Source: an uncultured Poribacteria bacterium
GTDB taxonomy: Bacteria > Poribacteria > WGA-4E > WGA-3G
Direction of reading: 5' to 3'
Assembly: GCA_951813565.1 (NCBI GenBank)
Contig: OX638351.1
Location: forward strand, 2,336,001-2,400,000
DNA length: 64,000 bases
Part shown: one piece after another, positions 2,758 through 63,780 of the stretch
How positions within the stretch are numbered: position 1 is the first letter of the stretch
Layout: each line of letters starts with the position of its first letter
The notes under the pieces: generated by a model
Database searches by the model: none
What the model was told of the DNA's origin: nothing
The model's input: the letters and a program-made list of their open reading frames with translations, nothing else
Position numbers and translations under genes: made by a program

Positions 2758-2794
2758 GTAGGGCAGGGTTTATTACCTTTGCCCTACTTTTTTA
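2758..2794 (+). terminator. Probable intrinsic terminator
   Basis: GTAGGGCA..TGCCCTAC stem followed by TTTTTT, immediately after the Rieske gene. Confidence 0.6.
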
Positions 2795-2825
2795 TCTTAC
2801 GTAGGTTGAGTTTCGCCAACTACCT

Positions 2826-2999
2826 GTAGTGTCAATTTAAGAAAGGCACAACACACTTAACCTTAGACGGTAGGAGCGGTTTCTAACCGCTCCGTATTAT
2901 CCGAAAGTGCTATTGTGGGAGGCGTTTTCAACGCCGATACAAACAAATCGGGCGGACAAAGTCTCCAACAAGAAAGACTATACATTAATTGAAACTTAT
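2826..2999. mobile_element. Degenerate MITE of the ATAGGTGTCAATTTAAG-TIR family carrying REP-like palindromes
   Basis: Ends TAGTGTCAATTTAAG and TTAATTGAAACTTAT; internal GTAGGAGCGG..CCGCTCC and TTGTGGGAGGCG..CGCCGA palindromes. Confidence 0.55.
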
Positions 3000-3020
3000 A
3001 ACTCAAACTCCCGTTAACAA

Positions 3021-4046
3021 ATGAAAAAAATCTTTATATTTATTCTTTTTAGTCTATTATCCGTGTCAGTTCATGGGGCATCGTTGGAACTCGCCTTTCA
3101 ACTGGGCGAAAAACAGCACCCACGGCTTGACAGGTTGTTGCCTGATGTTGTACGGTATATGGCTTTTAACAAGGATAGCACAAAGTTAATTGCTAAAGGC
3201 ATGGATGGAACCTTGGTAGAGTGGGATATTCAGTCACGCCAAAAGCGAGAAATAGGAAATATTCAAGCAAAGCGATTGTTTGTTTATACTGCAGGTACTA
3301 ATCAACTTTTAATTCAGAAAGAGGATGATGTCACGATTCTCAATCTCGGAGATAGCAATGAAACACAGGTAACAAAGGGACAGTATGAAAGTGGGAGTCT
3401 ATCAGCAGATGGTACTTTGGTAGTATTGTCAAAAGGTGACAAAGAATTTGGGTTTTGGCAAATCGCTAAGAAGAGTCTGAAGTCAGTGAAAACCTTTCAG
3501 ACAACCTTCCCAGTGAGAAACGGTCTTAAACTTTCTAATGATGGTAAGTATGTTGCGGCTGCAGAAGGGATTTATCGCAATGGTGAGGGACATCGCACAA
3601 TTATTGAGATTTGGGATGCAAACACTGAAAAGCAACCTATGCGTGTTTTTAACACAGGTGAAATCTTGGGCGTGTGGAACGTGATATTTTCAGATAGCGG
3701 AAAGATGCTTGCAGTAGATACGCAACGCAACGCAAAATCTGGAATCCGCGTATGGGGTGTAAAAACAGGCGCACAACTTCTCAATAAATCTGGGTTTGAG
3801 GCATACTGGACACGCGCTCTCGCTTTCGCGCCCAATAACAAATCAAATCCTACAGAATATCTTGCCTCTGGAGACGAGAAGGGCAATCTCCGAATATGGA
3901 AAATTCCCGGTGGTGAATCAATAATTTGGGAAAACTATCCAACTGGCATTCAAGCGTTAGCCTTTTCACCCAACGGAGAGTATTTGGCAGTTGCATTGTG
4001 GGATGCTACAACGCAGATTTTAAGGTGGAAAAGAGATGAACAATAA
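3021..4046 (+). CDS. Secreted WD40/beta-propeller protein
   Basis: Signal peptide; WD-type repeats (LAFAPN..YLASGDEKGNLRIW, ALAFSPNGEYLAV). Confidence 0.85.
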   Translation: MKKIFIFILFSLLSVSVHGASLELAFQLGEKQHPRLDRLLPDVVRYMAFNKDSTKLIAKGMDGTLVEWDIQSRQKREIGNIQAKRLFVYTAGTNQLLIQKEDDVTILNLGDSNETQVTKGQYESGSLSADGTLVVLSKGDKEFGFWQIAKKSLKSVKTFQTTFPVRNGLKLSNDGKYVAAAEGIYRNGEGHRTIIEIWDANTEKQPMRVFNTGEILGVWNVIFSDSGKMLAVDTQRNAKSGIRVWGVKTGAQLLNKSGFEAYWTRALAFAPNNKSNPTEYLASGDEKGNLRIWKIPGGESIIWENYPTGIQALAFSPNGEYLAVALWDATTQILRWKRDEQ

Positions 4047-4542
4047 TAACGAATCTTACACTGATGAAAAAGGACGCACCCGATGGCGCGTCAACGATGA
4101 AATCTCGTTGAAGCTATTGGAACTTCATACCTTCCTGATTATGTCAGACTACCCAGAAGACCATGCATCACGATATCCTCGTTTGGCACATTCCATCTCC
4201 CGTTTTCCAGAATCCGTTGCAGATCTTGTCGAGCAAGGAAGGTTAATAGAAGAAATTGGCGGAGTTGGTGAAATAGTTGAGACAATCATCACTGAATATC
4301 TAAAAACTGGAACGTGCTCGAAAATACAGGACTACGCAGGAGACATTCCGCAGACAGTTGCAGAACTTGTTCCTATCCCTGGACTTGGTGCAAAGACGAT
4401 TAAACGTTTATATGAGGATATTGAGGTTGATAGTCTTGCGTCCCTCCGTGCAGCAATTGATGAGGGTAAACTCAAAGGTTTTAAAGGCATTGGAAAGAAG
4501 ACATTAGATAAAATTGAGGGATACCTCAATACAAACTTATAA
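4036..4542 (+). CDS. Stand-alone PolX N-terminal (8-kDa plus HhH) domain protein, copy 1
   Basis: NDEIS.KL.EL, IGGVG..EYLKTG, IPGLGAKT and FKGIGKKT follow the N-terminus of bacterial PolX; there is no palm or PHP domain. Confidence 0.8.
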   Translation: MNNNNESYTDEKGRTRWRVNDEISLKLLELHTFLIMSDYPEDHASRYPRLAHSISRFPESVADLVEQGRLIEEIGGVGEIVETIITEYLKTGTCSKIQDYAGDIPQTVAELVPIPGLGAKTIKRLYEDIEVDSLASLRAAIDEGKLKGFKGIGKKTLDKIEGYLNTNL

Positions 4543-6963: not shown

Positions 6964-7135
6964 CTATAGTGAACTTGAAAAATAAAGATACACATTTTCT
7001 GTAGGGGCGATCTCCGAATCGCGACGAAACTCACTGATAGTTGGGAATCGGAGTTCCCTCCCGCCAAATGCCAAACGCGCATTTGGCGTTGATTCACATC
7101 TCAAAATGTCCCGTTAATTCTAAAGCTTACTATAA
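6964..7135. mobile_element. Degenerate MITE carrying two REPs, one interrupted by an AATCAA hairpin
   Basis: Imperfect ends TATAGTGAACTTGAAAAATAA / TTAATTCTAAAGCTTACTATA; internal REPs match 63527-63592; a related element lies at 47510-47600. Confidence 0.5.
7062..7094 (-). repeat. AATCAA-tagged mini-hairpin element, single copy
   Basis: CGCCAAATGC-caaacgc-GCATTTGGCG-TTGATT splits the REP GGGAATCGGAGTTCCCTCC|CAC. Confidence 0.75.
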
Positions 7136-7486: not shown

Positions 7487-8850
7487 CACTCCCCGTCAAA
7501 CCCCCTGCCTTTAGGTAGGGGATGTAGACGGCGAAAGTTTTGATTTAAAATATACTTTCAATCTAATCACAATGTGGTATAATATATCATACTATATTGT
7601 AGCTCTTGAAGTGATAAAAGACTATATTGAAGGTCAAAGTGGACAATGAGAAAATCTCACAAGTTCAAACTTCAACACCAATCTAACACAATCAAACTTG
7701 GTAATATGCTTTATGATATGTGGGAAATCCATGTGCATATCATGCGTTTGGCACGTAGGTATTATCGCATGTTCGGCAAAAATTTGTCTGCGTATCGTCT
7801 GAAGGCACACGTCACAAAACTTAAAAAGACAACTAAACCGCATTGGGCAGCCTTGCCGAGTCAAGTTGTGCAAGACGTTGTCCTACGTTATGGTAAATCA
7901 CAAGACGCATTTTTCCAAAATATAGCAAGCCGCAAATCAGGTAAAACAACGCGTAAAGTGGGTAGACCGAAAATCAAACCGAGACACAAATACAACTCCA
8001 TGACCTTCACACAAGCGGGCTACAAACTTGAAGATAATCGTATCAAAATCAACTGTATAGATACATGGTTTTCGTTTCACAAACACCGTGAAATCAAAGG
8101 TGTCATCAAGACGATCACGATCAAACGTGACAGGTGCGGTGACTATTGGATATGCTTTTCGTGCGAGAATGTTGACGATCCCGAACCCAAACCCAAGACA
8201 GGTAAGAGCGCAGGATTTGATTACGGAAACAAAACATTCCTCACAAGCGACGAAGGGGACACAATAGAATCCCCGCAGTTTTTCAAACAATCACTCAACA
8301 CGTTGCGATCTCTCAACAAAGCACTCAGTCGTAAAGTCAAAGGTTCTAACAACTATTATCGTGCGTGCCGTGCTTTAGCAAGGCAACACAGAAAAGTGGC
8401 ACGACAAAGAGAAGATTGGCAATGGAAACTTGCCTCAAAACTTTGTGTAGAGTTTGACACACTCATTTTGGAAACGCTGAACCTTGACGGTATGAAACGA
8501 TTATGGGGACGTAAAGTTTCTGACCATTCTTTCTACCAGTTTCTTCAGATATTGGAACAGAAGTGTGCGAAGCACGGCAAAAAACTTGTGCGAATCTCGC
8601 AATGGATAGCAACAACAAAACCTTGTAGTGATTGTGGATACCATAACAAAGAACTCTCTCTTTCTGATAGGCAGTGGACATGTCCCGAATGTGGGTCACA
8701 CCACGACAGAGACACCAACGCTGCTATCAATATCAAACGGGCAGGCTTGGCTGCCTAAAGTGGAGCGACAATAAGACGGTCAACTCTCTGAGAAAACCGC
8801 AGTCGCAAGGAAGCACAAGCCCCTACCTTTAGGTAGTGGGTACCTATGAC
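7487..8850 (+). mobile_element. IS200/IS605-family element, tnpB only (IS1341-like), 1364 bp
   Basis: Subterminal hairpins CCCCTGCCTTTAGGTAGGGG (left) and CCCCTACCTTTAGGTAGTGGG (right). Left target TTAG with guide AAAC; right end TGAC with guide CAAG. No TSD and no tnpA. Confidence 0.9.
7646..8758 (+). CDS. tnpB: RNA-guided endonuclease TnpB
   Basis: RuvC-I GFDYG, RuvC-II ILETL, Zn finger CSDC..CPECG and RuvC-III HDRDTNAAINI; all three catalytic acidic residues are present. Confidence 0.95.
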   Translation: MRKSHKFKLQHQSNTIKLGNMLYDMWEIHVHIMRLARRYYRMFGKNLSAYRLKAHVTKLKKTTKPHWAALPSQVVQDVVLRYGKSQDAFFQNIASRKSGKTTRKVGRPKIKPRHKYNSMTFTQAGYKLEDNRIKINCIDTWFSFHKHREIKGVIKTITIKRDRCGDYWICFSCENVDDPEPKPKTGKSAGFDYGNKTFLTSDEGDTIESPQFFKQSLNTLRSLNKALSRKVKGSNNYYRACRALARQHRKVARQREDWQWKLASKLCVEFDTLILETLNLDGMKRLWGRKVSDHSFYQFLQILEQKCAKHGKKLVRISQWIATTKPCSDCGYHNKELSLSDRQWTCPECGSHHDRDTNAAINIKRAGLAA

Positions 8851-11808: not shown

Positions 11809-14256
11809 ATGAAAATTGATTTAGACTATTGGATCGCCTGGATGTTTATTGCGATTTTTTTCGTGTTTCAACTCCCAGGCGATGTATTGGCAGAAGCCGA
11901 AGAAACATCAGCACACCGCACAGCGACAGCTATCCGCATTGAGGGTACACCACCGAAGTTAGATGGCGTTTTAGATGACGACATCTGGAAAACTGCGCCA
12001 CTCCACGAGGGTTTTCGCCAACGCGATCCCGATGAAGGAGATCCCGCATCTGAACGCACTACGTTCCAAATCGCCTACAATGACGATGCGCTCTACTTTG
12101 GGATCATGTGTTATGACAGTGAGCCAGATAAAATAGATGCGCAATTAATCAGACGTGACAATGTTTATGTTGACTCAGATAAAGTCAATATAAACATTGA
12201 TTCACACTACAACAGACAGCGTGCTTTCTGGTTTACTGTGCATCCTTCAGGATCCGTGACAGACGGTATCATTTCCGATGATAAATATCCCGACAGGACA
12301 TGGGATGGTGTGTGGGATGCCAAGACGCAAATTCACGCGGATGGTTGGTCAGTCGAATATAAAATTCCGTTTCATGTGCTGCGTTTTTCTCCAAAAAATA
12401 AATATGTTTGGGGACTCCAAGTTAATCGGTATATTAGCAGAAAAAAAGAGGATGCCCATTGGCGTTTGATTAAGAAAGATGAGCCCGGTTGGGTGGCACG
12501 CTTGGGAGACCTAACTGGCATCAAAGATATTTATCCCTCCCGACATATTGAAATTGTGCCTTATGCGATGGGCAGGACAATCCTCAATAGCGAAACAGAT
12601 TTGTGGGGAAATATTGGCACTGATATCCAATATGGGGTCAGCACCGGAACCACCCTCAACGCCACAATCAACCCCGATTTTGGACAAGTAGAAGCAGACC
12701 CTGCCAGCTTAAATCTCTCAGCTTATGAAGAGTATTTTGAGGAACGTCGTCCCTTCTTTGTCAAAGGAGCGTCTATCTTTCAAACCAGTGGACATCGTTT
12801 CTTTTATTCGCGCCGTATTGGACGGCGCCCGGGACATTTTGATATCCCCACTGGTGCAGAGGAACAGAGCCGCCCCGAATCGACAACGATTCTCGGTGCC
12901 GCCAAAATTGTCGGCAGAACGCAAAGCAATACTTCTTTCGGTATCATGGAGGCAGTCACCGCACCCGAATATGCCCAAATCAAGGAAAATGGCAATCCCC
13001 GTGAACATCTCATTGAACCCTTGACGAATCACTTTGTAGGTCGAATTAATCAAGACGTGCTAAAAGGGAATTCGCGTGTTGGGTTGATAGCCACCGCCGT
13101 TAACCGTCAAAACTCTAACGCTGCTTATGTGGGTGGGTTTGATTGGGATTTGAAGTTTGCCAAAGAACAATACCTAATAAAAGGCACTCTGGCAGGGAGC
13201 CAAGCAGGAGAACTTGATGCCCGTAAATCGGGCTACCTTACCCACTTCAACTTTGCTAAACGCGGCGGATGGTTGAGATTTGATACCGATTTTAAAGCAC
13301 TCTCCCCAGCTTTTGAGACAAATGACCTCGGTTTTAGTCAACGTAGTGACAAATTAGAGTGGAATTACGACCTCACGATACGCAAAGAGAATCCATTTAG
13401 CATCTTCCGACGTGTCAGATTTGGGCTTTATGGCTGGCGCACTTGGAACTACGACAGTGTGAATATCAATAGTTTCTCGGAAATATGGACAATTGGTCGT
13501 TTTAAAAACTGTTGGGACTACGAACTCTGGGTTGGACGTAACTTAGAATCGTTTAGTGATGAAGACGTAAGACGTGGCGGCACACTGATTAAAAATCCAC
13601 CGGGTTGGTGGGTTTTCACCCTGTTGGCAACTGACAGCCGCAAAATGGTTCAGTTAGAACTGAATCCAGGCTTCTCGTGGGATGACGAGAAACGTTCGTA
13701 TGGATATGATGTCCGGTTCGGTCTACGCATTCGGATCGCATCTAACGTTGAGTTTACCTTTGGTCCACGGTATAACTATCAGAAGCGGGATGCACAATGG
13801 GTGGACATCGTTGAAAAGAATATCAATGGGAAAACGCAGCAACATTACGTTTATGGGGAACTCGAGAACCGCACTTTAGACTTTACCACGCGCGCAAACA
13901 TCAGTTTTACACCAACGCTGAGTTTACAATTCTATGTGCAACCTTTCATCACTATCGGTGATTTTACGAACTTCAAAGAATTGGTAGAACCGAAATCTTA
14001 TCTGTTTAAACCGTATCTACTAAATGAAAACCGGGATTTTCATCGGCGTTCCTTACGCGGCAACACCGTCCTCCGCTGGGAATTTCGTCCCGGCAGCACG
14101 TTTTTTCTTGTCTGGTCTCAATCGCGTGAAGCTGTCTTGGAATCGGTTCAGGAAACAGAGCTTGATCTCCGTCCGTTGTATCGCTTAGGCAGCAGTTTTA
14201 CGGACAAAGGACAAAACATTTTTCTGATTAAATGTCGGTATTGGTTTGGAATATAG
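11809..14256 (+). CDS. CBM9-like/DUF5916 outer-membrane protein
   Basis: PKLDGVLDDDIW, NATINPDFGQVEAD and EERRPFF..FYSRRIG; aromatic beta-barrel-type C-terminus. Confidence 0.85.
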   Translation: MKIDLDYWIAWMFIAIFFVFQLPGDVLAEAEETSAHRTATAIRIEGTPPKLDGVLDDDIWKTAPLHEGFRQRDPDEGDPASERTTFQIAYNDDALYFGIMCYDSEPDKIDAQLIRRDNVYVDSDKVNINIDSHYNRQRAFWFTVHPSGSVTDGIISDDKYPDRTWDGVWDAKTQIHADGWSVEYKIPFHVLRFSPKNKYVWGLQVNRYISRKKEDAHWRLIKKDEPGWVARLGDLTGIKDIYPSRHIEIVPYAMGRTILNSETDLWGNIGTDIQYGVSTGTTLNATINPDFGQVEADPASLNLSAYEEYFEERRPFFVKGASIFQTSGHRFFYSRRIGRRPGHFDIPTGAEEQSRPESTTILGAAKIVGRTQSNTSFGIMEAVTAPEYAQIKENGNPREHLIEPLTNHFVGRINQDVLKGNSRVGLIATAVNRQNSNAAYVGGFDWDLKFAKEQYLIKGTLAGSQAGELDARKSGYLTHFNFAKRGGWLRFDTDFKALSPAFETNDLGFSQRSDKLEWNYDLTIRKENPFSIFRRVRFGLYGWRTWNYDSVNINSFSEIWTIGRFKNCWDYELWVGRNLESFSDEDVRRGGTLIKNPPGWWVFTLLATDSRKMVQLELNPGFSWDDEKRSYGYDVRFGLRIRIASNVEFTFGPRYNYQKRDAQWVDIVEKNINGKTQQHYVYGELENRTLDFTTRANISFTPTLSLQFYVQPFITIGDFTNFKELVEPKSYLFKPYLLNENRDFHRRSLRGNTVLRWEFRPGSTFFLVWSQSREAVLESVQETELDLRPLYRLGSSFTDKGQNIFLIKCRYWFGI

Positions 14257-14260
14257 TTTA

Positions 14261-14833
14261 ACGTGAGCTTGATAATTAGAATGAATATAAATGTCCGTTG
14301 GGTAGAGCGAAGCGAAACCTATAAATCAACGCTATGAATGCCTGAATCAACGCCAAATGCGCCTGTGGCATTTGGCGGGCATTCAGCCAAATCAACGCCA
14401 AATGCGCTTTTGGCATTTGACGGGTGTAAACTTAAGGAAAAATGCTGGTTTTTTTCTTGTGGGAGGGCTTTGTCCGCCTGATTTTGTGAGACTCAACCTG
14501 TTAAATCCAAATCAACGCTGAATGCGCTAAATCAACGGTCCGAATGCCATTTAGGCATTCCCCGTATGGCATTCATCGGGGTTGAAAACCCCTCCCACAA
14601 GAAGGTGTATCCTTAAGTTTACACCTATGGGTAGAGCGAAGCGAAACCCAACAATTCAACCGTCTTGAGAATAATAAAGAGTTGGGTTTCACTTATTTTT
14701 TCGGAAATATCGTCCTCAATAGCTCAACAACCTCTCTTTAGAGTCTGTTTTTATTGTCCATTTCCGTTCTACCCCACCGAATGCCATAGGCGCATTCGGT
14801 GTTGATTCCCTACGGGATTTATCAAACTCACGT
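14261..14833. mobile_element. Composite nested MITE (outer TIR ACGTGAGYTTGATAA)
   Basis: ACGTGAGCTTGATAA ... TTATCAAACTCACGT flanked by TAGTTTA on both sides (or a TAACGTG TIR with a GTT duplication). Contains a REP pair, an inner MITE and mini-hairpins; a lone TIR copy lies near 54036. Confidence 0.8.
14321..14628. mobile_element. Inner MITE (TIR ATAGGTGTAAACTTAAGGA) whose left TIR is split by three AATCAA hairpins
   Basis: Removing 14324-14422 restores a perfect 19-bp inverse of 14610-14628; flanked by the direct repeat GGGTAGAGCGAAGCGAAACC. Confidence 0.8.
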
Positions 14834-14889
14834 TAGTTTATAATTCCATAGGTATCATTCATTTTAGCGTATGCCATGCCCCATTACCA

Positions 14890-15140
14890 TTGTAGAGCGG
14901 GGTACCCGCTGAATGCGAAGAACGCATTCACAGCGTTGATTTGGTGCCCGCCGAATACCACACGCGCATTCAGTATTGATTTCCTTCAACAAGAAACGCT
15001 GTCACGAGTTGGAACTCGCTCCTACAAGAAAATGTCCAAATCCGCGTCATCTGTGTAATCCGAGATTCAGACAAATATCTACCCACAGTCTGTAAATAAT
15101 CCGTGCCATCTACGTAATCCGATAAATTCGCGTTTCAGAC
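14890..15140. repeat. Cluster of REP-like palindromes, two AATCAA hairpins and AATC-periodic repeats ending TTCAGAC
   Basis: Hairpins at 14907-14943 and 14949-14981; the REP at 15001-15028 is the inverse of 4871-4898; periodic arrays at 15039-15072 and 15098-15140. Confidence 0.6.
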
Positions 15141-15262
15141 AGAAGCTGGCGCGCTTACAAGCGCCTACTGTTTGGGGTATTTAGCGCGTAAATTTCCTTA
15201 AGTTGGCACTTATGGGTAGCTTGCATTTAACGAAACTCTGCATACCGTAATATCATCCATAT

Positions 15263-18046: not shown

Positions 18047-18081
18047 AAGTAATAGGCACACTCATGAAAATTATAAATAAC

Positions 18082-18427
18082 TGAGGGGTGTGCATAAATA
18101 ATTCCGATGTTAAATATGTCTTAAAGGTAGTCCGCACACGCCGTGGGTTTCCGTCCACAAGTTCAAAGAGGCGCAGCATGCCACACGGGGAATGCCATAA
18201 GGCATTCGGACCCGGTGAATGACTAAAGACGAATGCGCTTGGTAGAATACGCTTTTGGTATTCTACATGATTCGCCATGATTCATACCGTTGATTTCTTG
18301 ATTTGGCGCATGCTGCGTTGATTTGGCAATGAATTGCGCAACTACAAACGCATTTCTATAAATCAAGCGGCACCTGGCGTCTGTCCCTGTCTGTGTTGAT
18401 GCGCCAAATATTTATGCACACCCCTCA
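18082..18427. mobile_element. MITE with 19-bp perfect TIRs containing a five-deep stack of AATCAA hairpins
   Basis: TGAGGGGTGTGCATAAATA ... TATTTATGCACACCCCTCA; an uninterrupted relative lies at 26314-26421. Confidence 0.8.
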
Positions 18428-18538
18428 TCTATATACGCCCTTTCCTAATCGGGAAATTGCACCTTCCGGTAATACCCACGTTGTTCCTGTGGGGTCATCT
18501 GGCACAACATTAAATGGTGCTGGTTTTGGATTTTGCAT
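18425..18538 (-). pseudogene. 5' remnant of a WD40 paralog truncated at the MITE end
   Basis: AAGGAG RBS, then MQNPKPAPFNVVPDDPTGTTWVLPEGAISRLGKGVYR*; nearly identical to 20395-20488. Confidence 0.8.
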
Positions 18539-49624: not shown

Positions 49625-50238
49625 TCGTAGGTTGGGCAGAGCGTAAGCGAAACCTAATGCTATGAATGCCTTTATGGCATTTCGCGGATTTTTGGAACTT
49701 GGTGTTGATTCGCGGAGTAAATATTTACACACTTTTGCGAACATATTAACTTGAGGTTTAGTCTTTTTTGTGGTATAGTATACGTGAGTGAAAAATATGA
49801 GATCCACCACGGTTGCAACCGTTATAAAGTGAACACTTAAGCAAATGGCTAAAGAAGAGAGGGTGTGTAAATATTTGGTTACATAGGTTCAATTTGCAAT
49901 GATTACGCGGCGTTTTCCACTGTAGGGCGGGGTCCCTGTGCCCCATAGCCGTCAATTTAAGGATATACCCTCTTGTGGGAGTGAATCAACGCAGCATGCG
50001 CGTCCGGCATGCTGCCAAATCAACGCCAAATGCGACGAGTGCCATACGCGCGCTCGGCGTTGATTCTGCTTTTGGCATTTGTCGGGTTTTCAACCTCGAT
50101 AAGTACATATAAATCGGGCTTATAAAGCCCTCCCACAAGAGGCAATCTGGTAATTTTTTCTTAAATTGACATCCACTGAATGCCAAAAGGCATTCATAGC
50201 GTTGATTTGGGTTTCGCTTTGCTCTATCCGACCTACGC
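49625..50238. repeat. Inverted REP pair enclosing a MITE (49945-50208) and five or more AATCAA hairpins
   Basis: GTAGGTTGGGCAGAGCGTAAGCGAAACC ... GGTTTCGCTTTGCTCTATCCGACCTAC; ATAGCCGTCAATTTAAG ... CTTAAATTGAC; hairpins at 49657-49714, 49984-50084 and 50174-50207. Confidence 0.7.
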
Positions 50239-63466: not shown

Positions 63467-63780
63467 AAGTTGCTACCTATGTAGCACAAACTTTTAGTGG
63501 AGTGTCTACCGAAATTTTGCGGGTAAAGGTCGCGATTCGGAGATCGCTCCTACAGAACACCCCTCTTTGTAGGAGGGAACTCCGATTCCCGACTACTGAC
63601 ACGAATCGCAATTTTAGTGTAGACAGAACATTAGTTTGTGTCATAAGGGCGCAAACTGAAAGTGCTATCAACGGTATGAATGCCTTAATGGCATTCCCCG
63701 TGCTACAAAATCTATGCTAATAGTGAACTATCCGATTAAAAAGGTGTTTTTTATGTCAATTATCTTGTAGGTAGCAACTT
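63467..63780. mobile_element. Composite MITE with REPs and one AATCAA-type hairpin
   Basis: AAGTTGCTACCT ... AGGTAGCAACTT ends; REP pair at 63527-63592; hairpin at 63667-63700. Confidence 0.65.

What the first reader, a model, noticed from the sequence alone, without database searches (positions are those of the whole stretch)
14324..14422. A ~33-36 nt AATCAA-tagged hairpin that behaves as a mobile element and inserts into other repeats and into itself
Seen: about 20 copies of AATCAA followed directly by a ~10-bp stem and 4-8 nt loop, in both orientations: 7062, 14324 (x3), 14510 (x2), 14775, 14907, 14949, 18173 (x5), ~49657, 49984 (x3), 50174 and 63667. Stems covary while the tag is conserved (CGCCAAATGC/GCATTTGGCG, GCAGCATGC/GCATGCTGC, CACCGAATGC/GCATTCGGTG, GTAGAATAC/GTATTCTAC). 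Every copy I found lies inside a REP, a MITE end or another copy, never in a CDS. Deleting 14324-14422 restores a perfect 19-bp TIR with no target duplication. Established: a short tag at the 5' foot of a hairpin and TSD-free insertion are hallmarks of HUH Y1 transposase substrates (IS200/IS605 ends; GTAG- and CGTC-tagged REPs with RAYT). Inference: this is a REP-like class with a different tag that moves as a single minimal unit and targets structured or single-stranded DNA. No cognate enzyme is visible in this window.
Basis: partly seen in the sequence, partly recalled or inferred. Interest (0 to 1): 0.82.

Follow-up and report, generated by a model that had tools for sequence, protein, structure and literature searches.

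The report
Tiny self-targeting hairpin insertion element
A 34-36-base piece of DNA, a short fixed tag plus a hairpin, sits at hundreds of places in this sponge-symbiont (Poribacteria) genome, inside other repeats, inside its own copies and in frame in two genes, with matching empty sites elsewhere; it is likely pasted in by a single-strand nicking enzyme made elsewhere, which was not found.

Summary
Real, with corrections. Of 20 claimed copies, 16 carry the exact tag, 2 a variant tag, 1 a clipped tag, 1 none. The genome holds at least 693 units in about 80-100 site types. Exact empty alleles exist for 338 of 2358 tag sites against 7 of 2358 random sites, mostly 34-35 bases shorter. One gene carries a 36-base in-frame copy in 3 of 20 orthologues, 17 empty, so 'never in a CDS' fails genome-wide. 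The unit starts 2 bases before the tag and lands between C and G; each insertion rebuilds that target, which explains stacking (135 of 136). The hairpin end is exact; the tag end is loose, sometimes losing or duplicating host bases. It is confined to one Poribacteria family (83 of 99 genomes, 1 of 51 outside). No cognate RAYT, reverse transcriptase or IS110 was found, and several carriers lack any detected Y1 gene. It is not a REP by the tests made; the nearest kind is the Nostoc small dispersed repeats (paper not held). This scan noted the same unit before on other DNA of this and other genomes.

The parts
14324..14387 (+). Outer unit (bulged-stem type) inserted in the left inverted repeat of a MITE; no 2-base lead; its loop is interrupted by the next unit
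14343..14377 (+). Inner unit in the loop of the outer one; about 3-4 loop bases of the host are lost
14388..14422 (+). Tandem unit inserted at the C|G formed by the end of the outer unit; 14422 is the closing G
14324..14330 (+). The 7-base tag; its last base pairs with the G that closes the stem
14321..14628 (.). Host MITE with 19-bp inverted repeats (left arm split by the stack, right arm 14610-14628), flanked by a ~20-base direct repeat
14508..14577 (+). Unit at the foot of a REP hairpin inside the MITE, with a 36-base unit (14528-14563) in its loop
14775..14809 (-). Unit with a compensated outer stem pair, in a GTAG-type REP
14907..14943 (-). Diverged unit in a REP
14949..14983 (-). Diverged unit, seventh tag base changed
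7062..7096 (-). Single unit in the tag of a GTAG-type REP, one or two host bases replaced
18173..18325 (-). Five-deep nest in a REP: three units with the main tag (tags at 18318, 18298, 18290) and two with the variant tag (18277, 18267)
49655..49687 (+). Hairpin body without a tag (eroded or truncated copy)
49982..50083 (+). Tandem pair (49982-50015, 50016-50083) in a REP, the second with an opposite-strand unit (50034-50067) in its loop
50174..50209 (-). Unit in a MITE-like end
63667..63699 (+). Tag-clipped unit flanked by a 5-6 base duplication of the host; 7 copies of this junction in the genome

Best explanation
It is a gene-less 34-36-base insertion unit (2-base lead, 7-base tag, ~10-bp hairpin) that has inserted at many C|G steps, likely as a single strand joined first at its hairpin end by a HUH-type (Y1/RAYT-like) nicking enzyme acting in trans, with the tag end likely finished loosely by host repair. 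Shown: the unit boundaries, the C|G-then-G-rich target, empty alleles, an exact hairpin end, a variable tag end, and self-stacking because every insertion ends in C before a host G and so rebuilds the target. Shown too: many copies were multiplied passively with their host repeats (527 junctions fall into about 103 site types). Inferred: the enzyme class, the single-strand intermediate, and that the transferred strand reads hairpin first, tail last.
For: Empty alleles: 338 of 2358 tag sites against 7 of 2358 random, 294 of 338 at 34-35 bases; 60 of 333 isolated units have long-flank empty paralogues, 41 with no net loss, 13 with one host base lost, 6 with one gained; 17 of 20 orthologues empty at an in-frame site. 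Target: the common lead follows C in 420 of 438 units; 534 of 693 are followed by G and 133 by the next unit; by site type, C before in 56 and G, G, G after in 82, 62, 51 of 103. Tandem junctions use the common lead in 135 of 136. Where the host has no C, leads differ and the host loses or swaps 1-4 bases while the closing G still appears. Structure is conserved over sequence. No duplication as a rule and hairpin substrates fit HUH chemistry as described in PMC8266576 (sections 3 and 23 part 1 read). Hosts are often GTAG-type REPs (46% of site types against 29% of intergenic controls), and RAYT-like genes exist in the genome. On the tag strand A.C mismatches outnumber G.T 33 to 14 haplotypes (p 0.008), the reverse of GTAG REPs (16 to 23, not significant).
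Against: No cognate enzyme: none of 23 RAYT-like loci seen in full (of 30 fetched; 3 too short, the rest cut from the output) is framed by the unit; G001, G010, G023 and G024 hold 58, 61, 63 and 25 units of one type yet no PF01797 or NF047646 match, and G023 is one contig. No further HUH nuclease was evident in the own genome. Loose tag ends, lost bases and one duplicated junction type are not what plain HUH strand transfer gives. Strand evidence is mixed: 5 to 4 in foreign loci, and the tag strand folds lower in 154 of 253 bodies against 84. No circle, no strain polymorphism and no sign of present activity were seen.
Confidence: 0.42

Rival explanations
1. A free single-stranded copy (DNA cut out of a hairpin, or an RNA copy) is patched into gaps or forks by host repair enzymes through 1-3 bases of microhomology; no dedicated transposase is needed for the insertion step.
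For: Explains the closing G overwriting host bases, the G-rich preference beyond the hairpin end, the shared C before the common lead, 1-4 base losses, a clipped and duplicated junction, and variant-tag units that join through 3 shared bases. Explains carriers with no detected Y1 gene.
Against: It does not explain why a 7-base tag at a fixed distance is kept across two genera unless some protein reads it. A reverse transcriptase is not general: 18 of 40 genomes have one, and unit-rich G006, G012, G014, G017 have none. No leading/lagging bias (365 of 693; origin taken from a weak GC skew).
Confidence: 0.25
2. It is a REP class with a new tag at the 5' foot of the hairpin, cut and rejoined precisely by its own RAYT.
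For: Tag directly before a hairpin, REP size, intergenic spread (682 of 693 outside ORF cores), dinucleotide target; in one RAYT the tag selects the cut site.
Against: No REPtron found; copies are single inserts, nests and head-to-tail stacks rather than inverted pairs; units whose first stem base is A still sit after C (13 of 13 listed); tag end loose; mismatch bias points to the other strand.
Confidence: 0.15
3. A few ancient insertions, spread only by amplification of host REPs and MITEs, slippage between tags and gene conversion.
For: Most copies fall in few site types (72, 28, 27, 27, 26 copies in the top five); all 3 copies of one transposase-like gene carry the same insert; conspecific contigs show the same filled sites and no empty one in the rows seen.
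Against: About 81-103 distinct site types, 42-57 seen once, in one genome, unique in-gene insertions, and nests up to five deep require many separate events.
Confidence: 0.13
4. Decayed ends of a larger IS or MITE, or an assembly artefact.
For: One stack lies in a MITE end; hairpin plus short tail resembles the geometry of IS200/IS605 right ends in this genome.
Against: Ends of 40 TnpB-bearing loci do not resemble it (read by eye); none of 20 ORFs flanked on both sides by units is a transposase by eye; independent assemblies and metagenome contigs hold the same units, some at identical sites.
Confidence: 0.05

Closest known systems
Small dispersed repeats (SDR) of Nostocaceae, Elhai et al. 2008 (PMC2527708; not held; seen only through passages of PMC4390886, PMC5861425 and PMC3116915)
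   Same: Very small, gene-less, lineage-restricted repeat that inserts precisely at a fixed step of a short palindromic target, mover unknown.
   Different: Other phylum (SDRs are reported only from Nostocaceae); target here is C|G in many hosts, not HIP1; a fixed tag plus covarying stem and a loose tag end. Sizes and sequences of SDRs could not be compared.
GTAG- and CGTC-tagged REPs, BIMEs and REPINs with RAYT (TnpA-REP) (PMC8266576 abstract, sections 3 and 23 part 1; PMC3733652 passages and section 7; PMC3116915 passages)
   Same: 20-50 base hairpin with a conserved tag at one foot, hundreds of intergenic copies, no target duplication.
   Different: 7-base tag plus 2-base lead instead of a tetranucleotide; joints at C|G rather than C|T; no neighbouring RAYT found; moves as a single unit into REPs rather than as inverted pairs.
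IS200/IS605 ends and their non-autonomous derivatives (PMC8266576 passages; derivatives recalled)
   Same: Hairpin with a short tail, no duplication, target bases conserved on one side of the joint.
   Different: One hairpin instead of two ends; no guide at the foot on the hairpin-first strand; no likeness to the genome's own IS605 ends; one end imprecise.
IS91/Helitron rolling-circle elements (recalled; named as HUH)
   Same: One exact end and one loose end, hairpin close to the loose end, no duplication.
   Different: Thirty times smaller; no Y2 transposase found in the own genome, although that search rang in no control and so proves little.

Membership tests
REP with RAYT | 20-50 nt hairpin, many copies, mostly intergenic | tested here: met
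   693 units of 32-36 nt, 11 in ORF cores that cover 76% of the genome
REP with RAYT | Conserved tetranucleotide (GTAG or CGTC type) before the stem | tested here: not met
   A different 7-base tag and a variant of it
REP with RAYT | A tnpA-REP gene framed by the cognate repeats (REPtron) | tested here: not met
   5 RAYT-like loci of the own genome and 23 of 30 genus loci seen in full are framed by other repeats, mostly GTAG-type; the unit occurs there only as an occasional insert
REP with RAYT | Organisation in inverted pairs (BIME/REPIN) | tested here: not met
   346 of 474 loci are single units; stacks are head-to-tail or nested; a few double-tag palindromes exist
REP with RAYT | Strand-specific cleavage of the single strand by the enzyme | not testable with these tools
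   Needs in vitro assay
IS200/IS605 non-autonomous element | Separate left and right hairpin ends matching a resident IS | tested here: not met
   One hairpin; no likeness to ends of 40 TnpB loci (by eye)
IS200/IS605 non-autonomous element | No target duplication, precise at both ends | tested here: inconclusive
   Clean in 41 of 60 long-flank pairs, base loss or gain in 19; one duplicated junction type
SDR-type very small mobile repeat | Precise insertion at a fixed step of a short target | tested here: met
   C|G joints, empty alleles
SDR-type very small mobile repeat | Sequence, size and structure of SDR1-8 | not testable with these tools
   Defining paper not held
MITE | Terminal inverted repeats with target duplication, 70-300 bp | tested here: not met
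   34-36 bases, asymmetric tail, no duplication as a rule
Rfam RNA family | Match to a covariance model | tested here: not met
   0 matches up to E 1 in 14200-15200

The most novel reading that the evidence does not exclude
A separate class of minimal mobile DNA in which one tailed hairpin serves as both ends, is transferred hairpin-end first at C|G, rebuilds its own target at each insertion, and is moved by a family-wide enzyme of Poribacteria that is not a recognisable Y1, RAYT, IS110 or reverse transcriptase.
Probability: 0.22. Interest if true: 0.85.

Novelty: new variant of a known kind. Interest (0 to 1): 0.52.

Why it matters
How 20-40 base repeats spread in bacteria is an old open question; even for REPs the dissemination mechanism is stated to be unresolved (PMC8266576). 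Here the unit, its target and hundreds of junctions are defined to the base, with two junction classes and in-frame inserts in genes, so a short oligonucleotide assay against a handful of candidate enzymes becomes possible. A 35-base cargo that inserts at C|G without duplication would also be of interest as a tool. The value is limited by the missing enzyme, an uncultured host and no sign of present activity.

Tried and rejected
Enzyme searches that led nowhere: PF01797 in the own genome gave 5 IS200/IS605 TnpA and 5 RAYT-like genes, none framed by the unit; a profile search of six-frame peptides added none; an HUH motif scan listed 78 ORFs, none a new nuclease by eye; IS110 0 matches (control rang in 6 of 14); Rep_trans 0; Y2 0 but uninformative; one tyrosine recombinase, not examined further; two reverse transcriptases, one beside cas1 and a CRISPR array, neither with a unit within 6 kb. 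G001 and G016 first looked unit-free but carry the second type, so no clean negative genome was available. No match in viral contigs, phages or plasmids (one search used an unrelated stretch), or Rfam. Orthologues of the 14256 gene end in 8 relatives lack the whole host cassette, so they do not test this site. Laying contigs of 6 runs showed 35-37 base skips, but with short sides and many paralogues they cannot be read as excision; contigs of runs X8 and X9 stop at 49651, unresolved. A guide rule in which the first stem base picks the target failed. Peeling used only bodies confirmed by empty alleles, so the 14775 type and others were missed: 693 is a floor and some site types are chimeric. 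Literature: six searches (listings and abstract starts only) showed no description of this repeat; subscription journals and the SDR paper are not covered. One planned direct count of host-repeat alleles was not run; allele counts come.

Full report
Setting. The window is G000:C1:2336001-2400000 of a 5.43-Mb single-contig genome, 43% G+C. A hairpin-body pattern scanned over 12 of 64 parts of the GTDB collection gave 122 loci; of the 80 listed, 79 are titled Candidatus Poribacteria and one 'uncultured bacterium'. The window's own name is inferred from this kinship.

Observation. The tag hexamer alone is at chance level in the window (87 against 74.6 +/- 9.1). Tag plus hairpin is not: 304 of 6935 genome sites precede a 9-bp stem, 26 times background, and 237 of 6935 fold at -10 kcal/mol or lower against 2-8 of 2772-4057 for six control hexamers. 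Of the 20 copies claimed, 16 have the exact hexamer, two a variant tag, one a clipped tag and one none. The deletion of 14324-14422 restores a 19-bp inverted repeat without duplication. In 13 aligned window copies 8 of 10 pairs change on both sides.

Anatomy. An unbiased deletion test (all starts from -8 to +3, lengths 24-46, 12-base flanks) found exact joined flanks elsewhere in the genome for 338 of 2358 tag sites and 7 of 2358 random sites; 294 of the 338 were 34 or 35 bases. The common register starts 2 bases before the tag and ends at the C before the G that closes the stem. Iterative removal found 693 units (0 in the reversed and 0 in the complemented genome) at 474 loci; this is a floor, since only bodies confirmed by empty alleles were used. 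There are two main body types, an even 9-bp arm with a 7-8 base loop and a bulged arm with a 4-5 base loop. A second tag, changed at positions 6 and 7, heads 60 of 770 sites; its seventh base again pairs with the closing base; the other 14 dinucleotides give 0-7 each.

Junctions. The common lead follows C in 420 of 438 units; 534 of 693 units are followed by G and 133 by the next unit. Among about 103 site types from 527 junctions, C precedes in 56, and G, G, G follow in 82, 62 and 51; right flanks alone give 81 types. Because a unit ends in C before a host G, it rebuilds the target; 135 of 136 tandem junctions use the common lead. In hosts without the C, the lead differs, 1-4 host bases are lost or swapped, and the closing G still appears where the empty allele has A or C. 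Of 60 isolated units with long-flank empty paralogues (of 333), 41 were net clean, 13 had lost one base, 6 had one more. The 63667 type is tag-clipped with a 5-6 base duplication, 7 copies. So the hairpin end is exact and the tag end loose, a reading that earlier notes of this scan also gave and that I tested.

Mobility. A gene at G000:4511528-4512346 (lipoate-ligase-like; label recalled from the sequence, untested) carries a 36-base in-frame unit at C|G in 3 of 20 fetched orthologues (20 loci from 40 genomes searched) and is empty in 17. A multicopy transposase-like ORF carries another 36-base unit in 3 of 3 copies found. Only 11 of 693 units lie in ORF cores that cover 76% of the genome; both gene inserts keep the frame, so purifying selection likely explains part of the intergenic bias. 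Preference for structure is modest: median -6.1 against -5.1 kcal/mol for intergenic CG sites (p 0.0009), REP tag within 20 bases in 46% against 29%. Many copies rode along with host repeats. Conspecific metagenome contigs show the same filled sites, which rules out artefact, but no empty allele in the rows seen; laid contigs were inconclusive.

Distribution. The even-arm pattern is in 22 of 24 same-genus genomes and 0 of 16 of other families; the bulged type in 83 of 99 genomes of the family and 1 of 51 outside, backwards control 0. No match in viral contigs, phages, plasmids or Rfam.

Enzyme. The own genome has IS200/IS605 TnpA and RAYT-like genes, each with other repeats. In 23 of 30 RAYT-like loci seen in full none is framed by the unit. 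Four carriers, one a single contig, have no PF01797 or NF047646 match; loss after spread remains possible. Reverse transcriptases occur in 18 of 40 genomes and not in several unit-rich ones. IS110 and Rep_trans were not found; the Y2 search was uninformative. Resident IS605 ends differ.

Which strand. On the tag strand A.C mismatches exceed G.T (33 to 14 haplotypes, p 0.008), while GTAG REPs lean the other way (16 to 23, p 0.34); this fits wobble or deamination on the hairpin-then-tail strand. Target information also lies on the side that is 5' of the insert on that strand. Against: 5 to 4 in foreign loci and lower folding energy of the tag strand in 154 of 253 bodies. The point is open.

Mechanism and rank. 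Best reading (0.42): single-strand transfer of the hairpin end by a HUH-type enzyme in trans, tag end closed by repair. Rivals: microhomology patching by host enzymes (0.25), a true REP with its own RAYT (0.15), passive spread of few events (0.13), decayed IS end or artefact (0.05). It works like a REP or IS200/IS605 substrate but fails membership tests for both, using the definitions in PMC8266576 (abstract, section 3, first part of section 23) and PMC3733652 (passages, section 7). The nearest kind is the SDRs of Nostocaceae, seen only through passages of three citing papers; the source paper is not held. Six searches showed no description of this repeat in the held library. The scan itself has noted the unit many times in this and other Poribacteria genomes. 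Verdict: real, a new variant of very small mobile repeats, enzyme unknown, interest 0.52.

Noticed in passing
window 14300-14650: The host MITE (19-bp inverted repeats, 140-390 bp pairs in the genome) is flanked by a ~20-base direct repeat that duplicates a REP hairpin; 5 of 24 end pairs showed exact 20-23 base duplications. Its parent transposase was not sought.
   Followed up: partly
window 18241-18282 and about 60 genome sites: A second micro-unit family with a variant tag, loop reversed relative to the tag, that inserts into stems of the main units and joins through three shared bases.
   Followed up: partly
window 7487-8822: IS605-family derivative: left-end hairpin, a remnant of tnpA and an intact 370-aa tnpB; about 30 near-identical copies in the genome.
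   Followed up: partly
G000:C1:3988991-3996100: A stand-alone reverse transcriptase gene between a cas1-like gene and a long CRISPR array (cas1 label read from the sequence by eye).
   Followed up: no
G000:C1:134301-134348, 502438-502476: Double-tag palindromes with a tag at both feet of one hairpin, probably from inversion or template switching between opposed units.
   Followed up: no
window 18047-18430 and 49856-49930: A further very abundant repeat end brackets several unit stacks and draws the highest contig depth.
   Followed up: no
L207-L236: The genus holds several RAYT clades, each framed by its own GTAG-type repeat family, a ready set for matching REP families to enzymes.
   Followed up: partly
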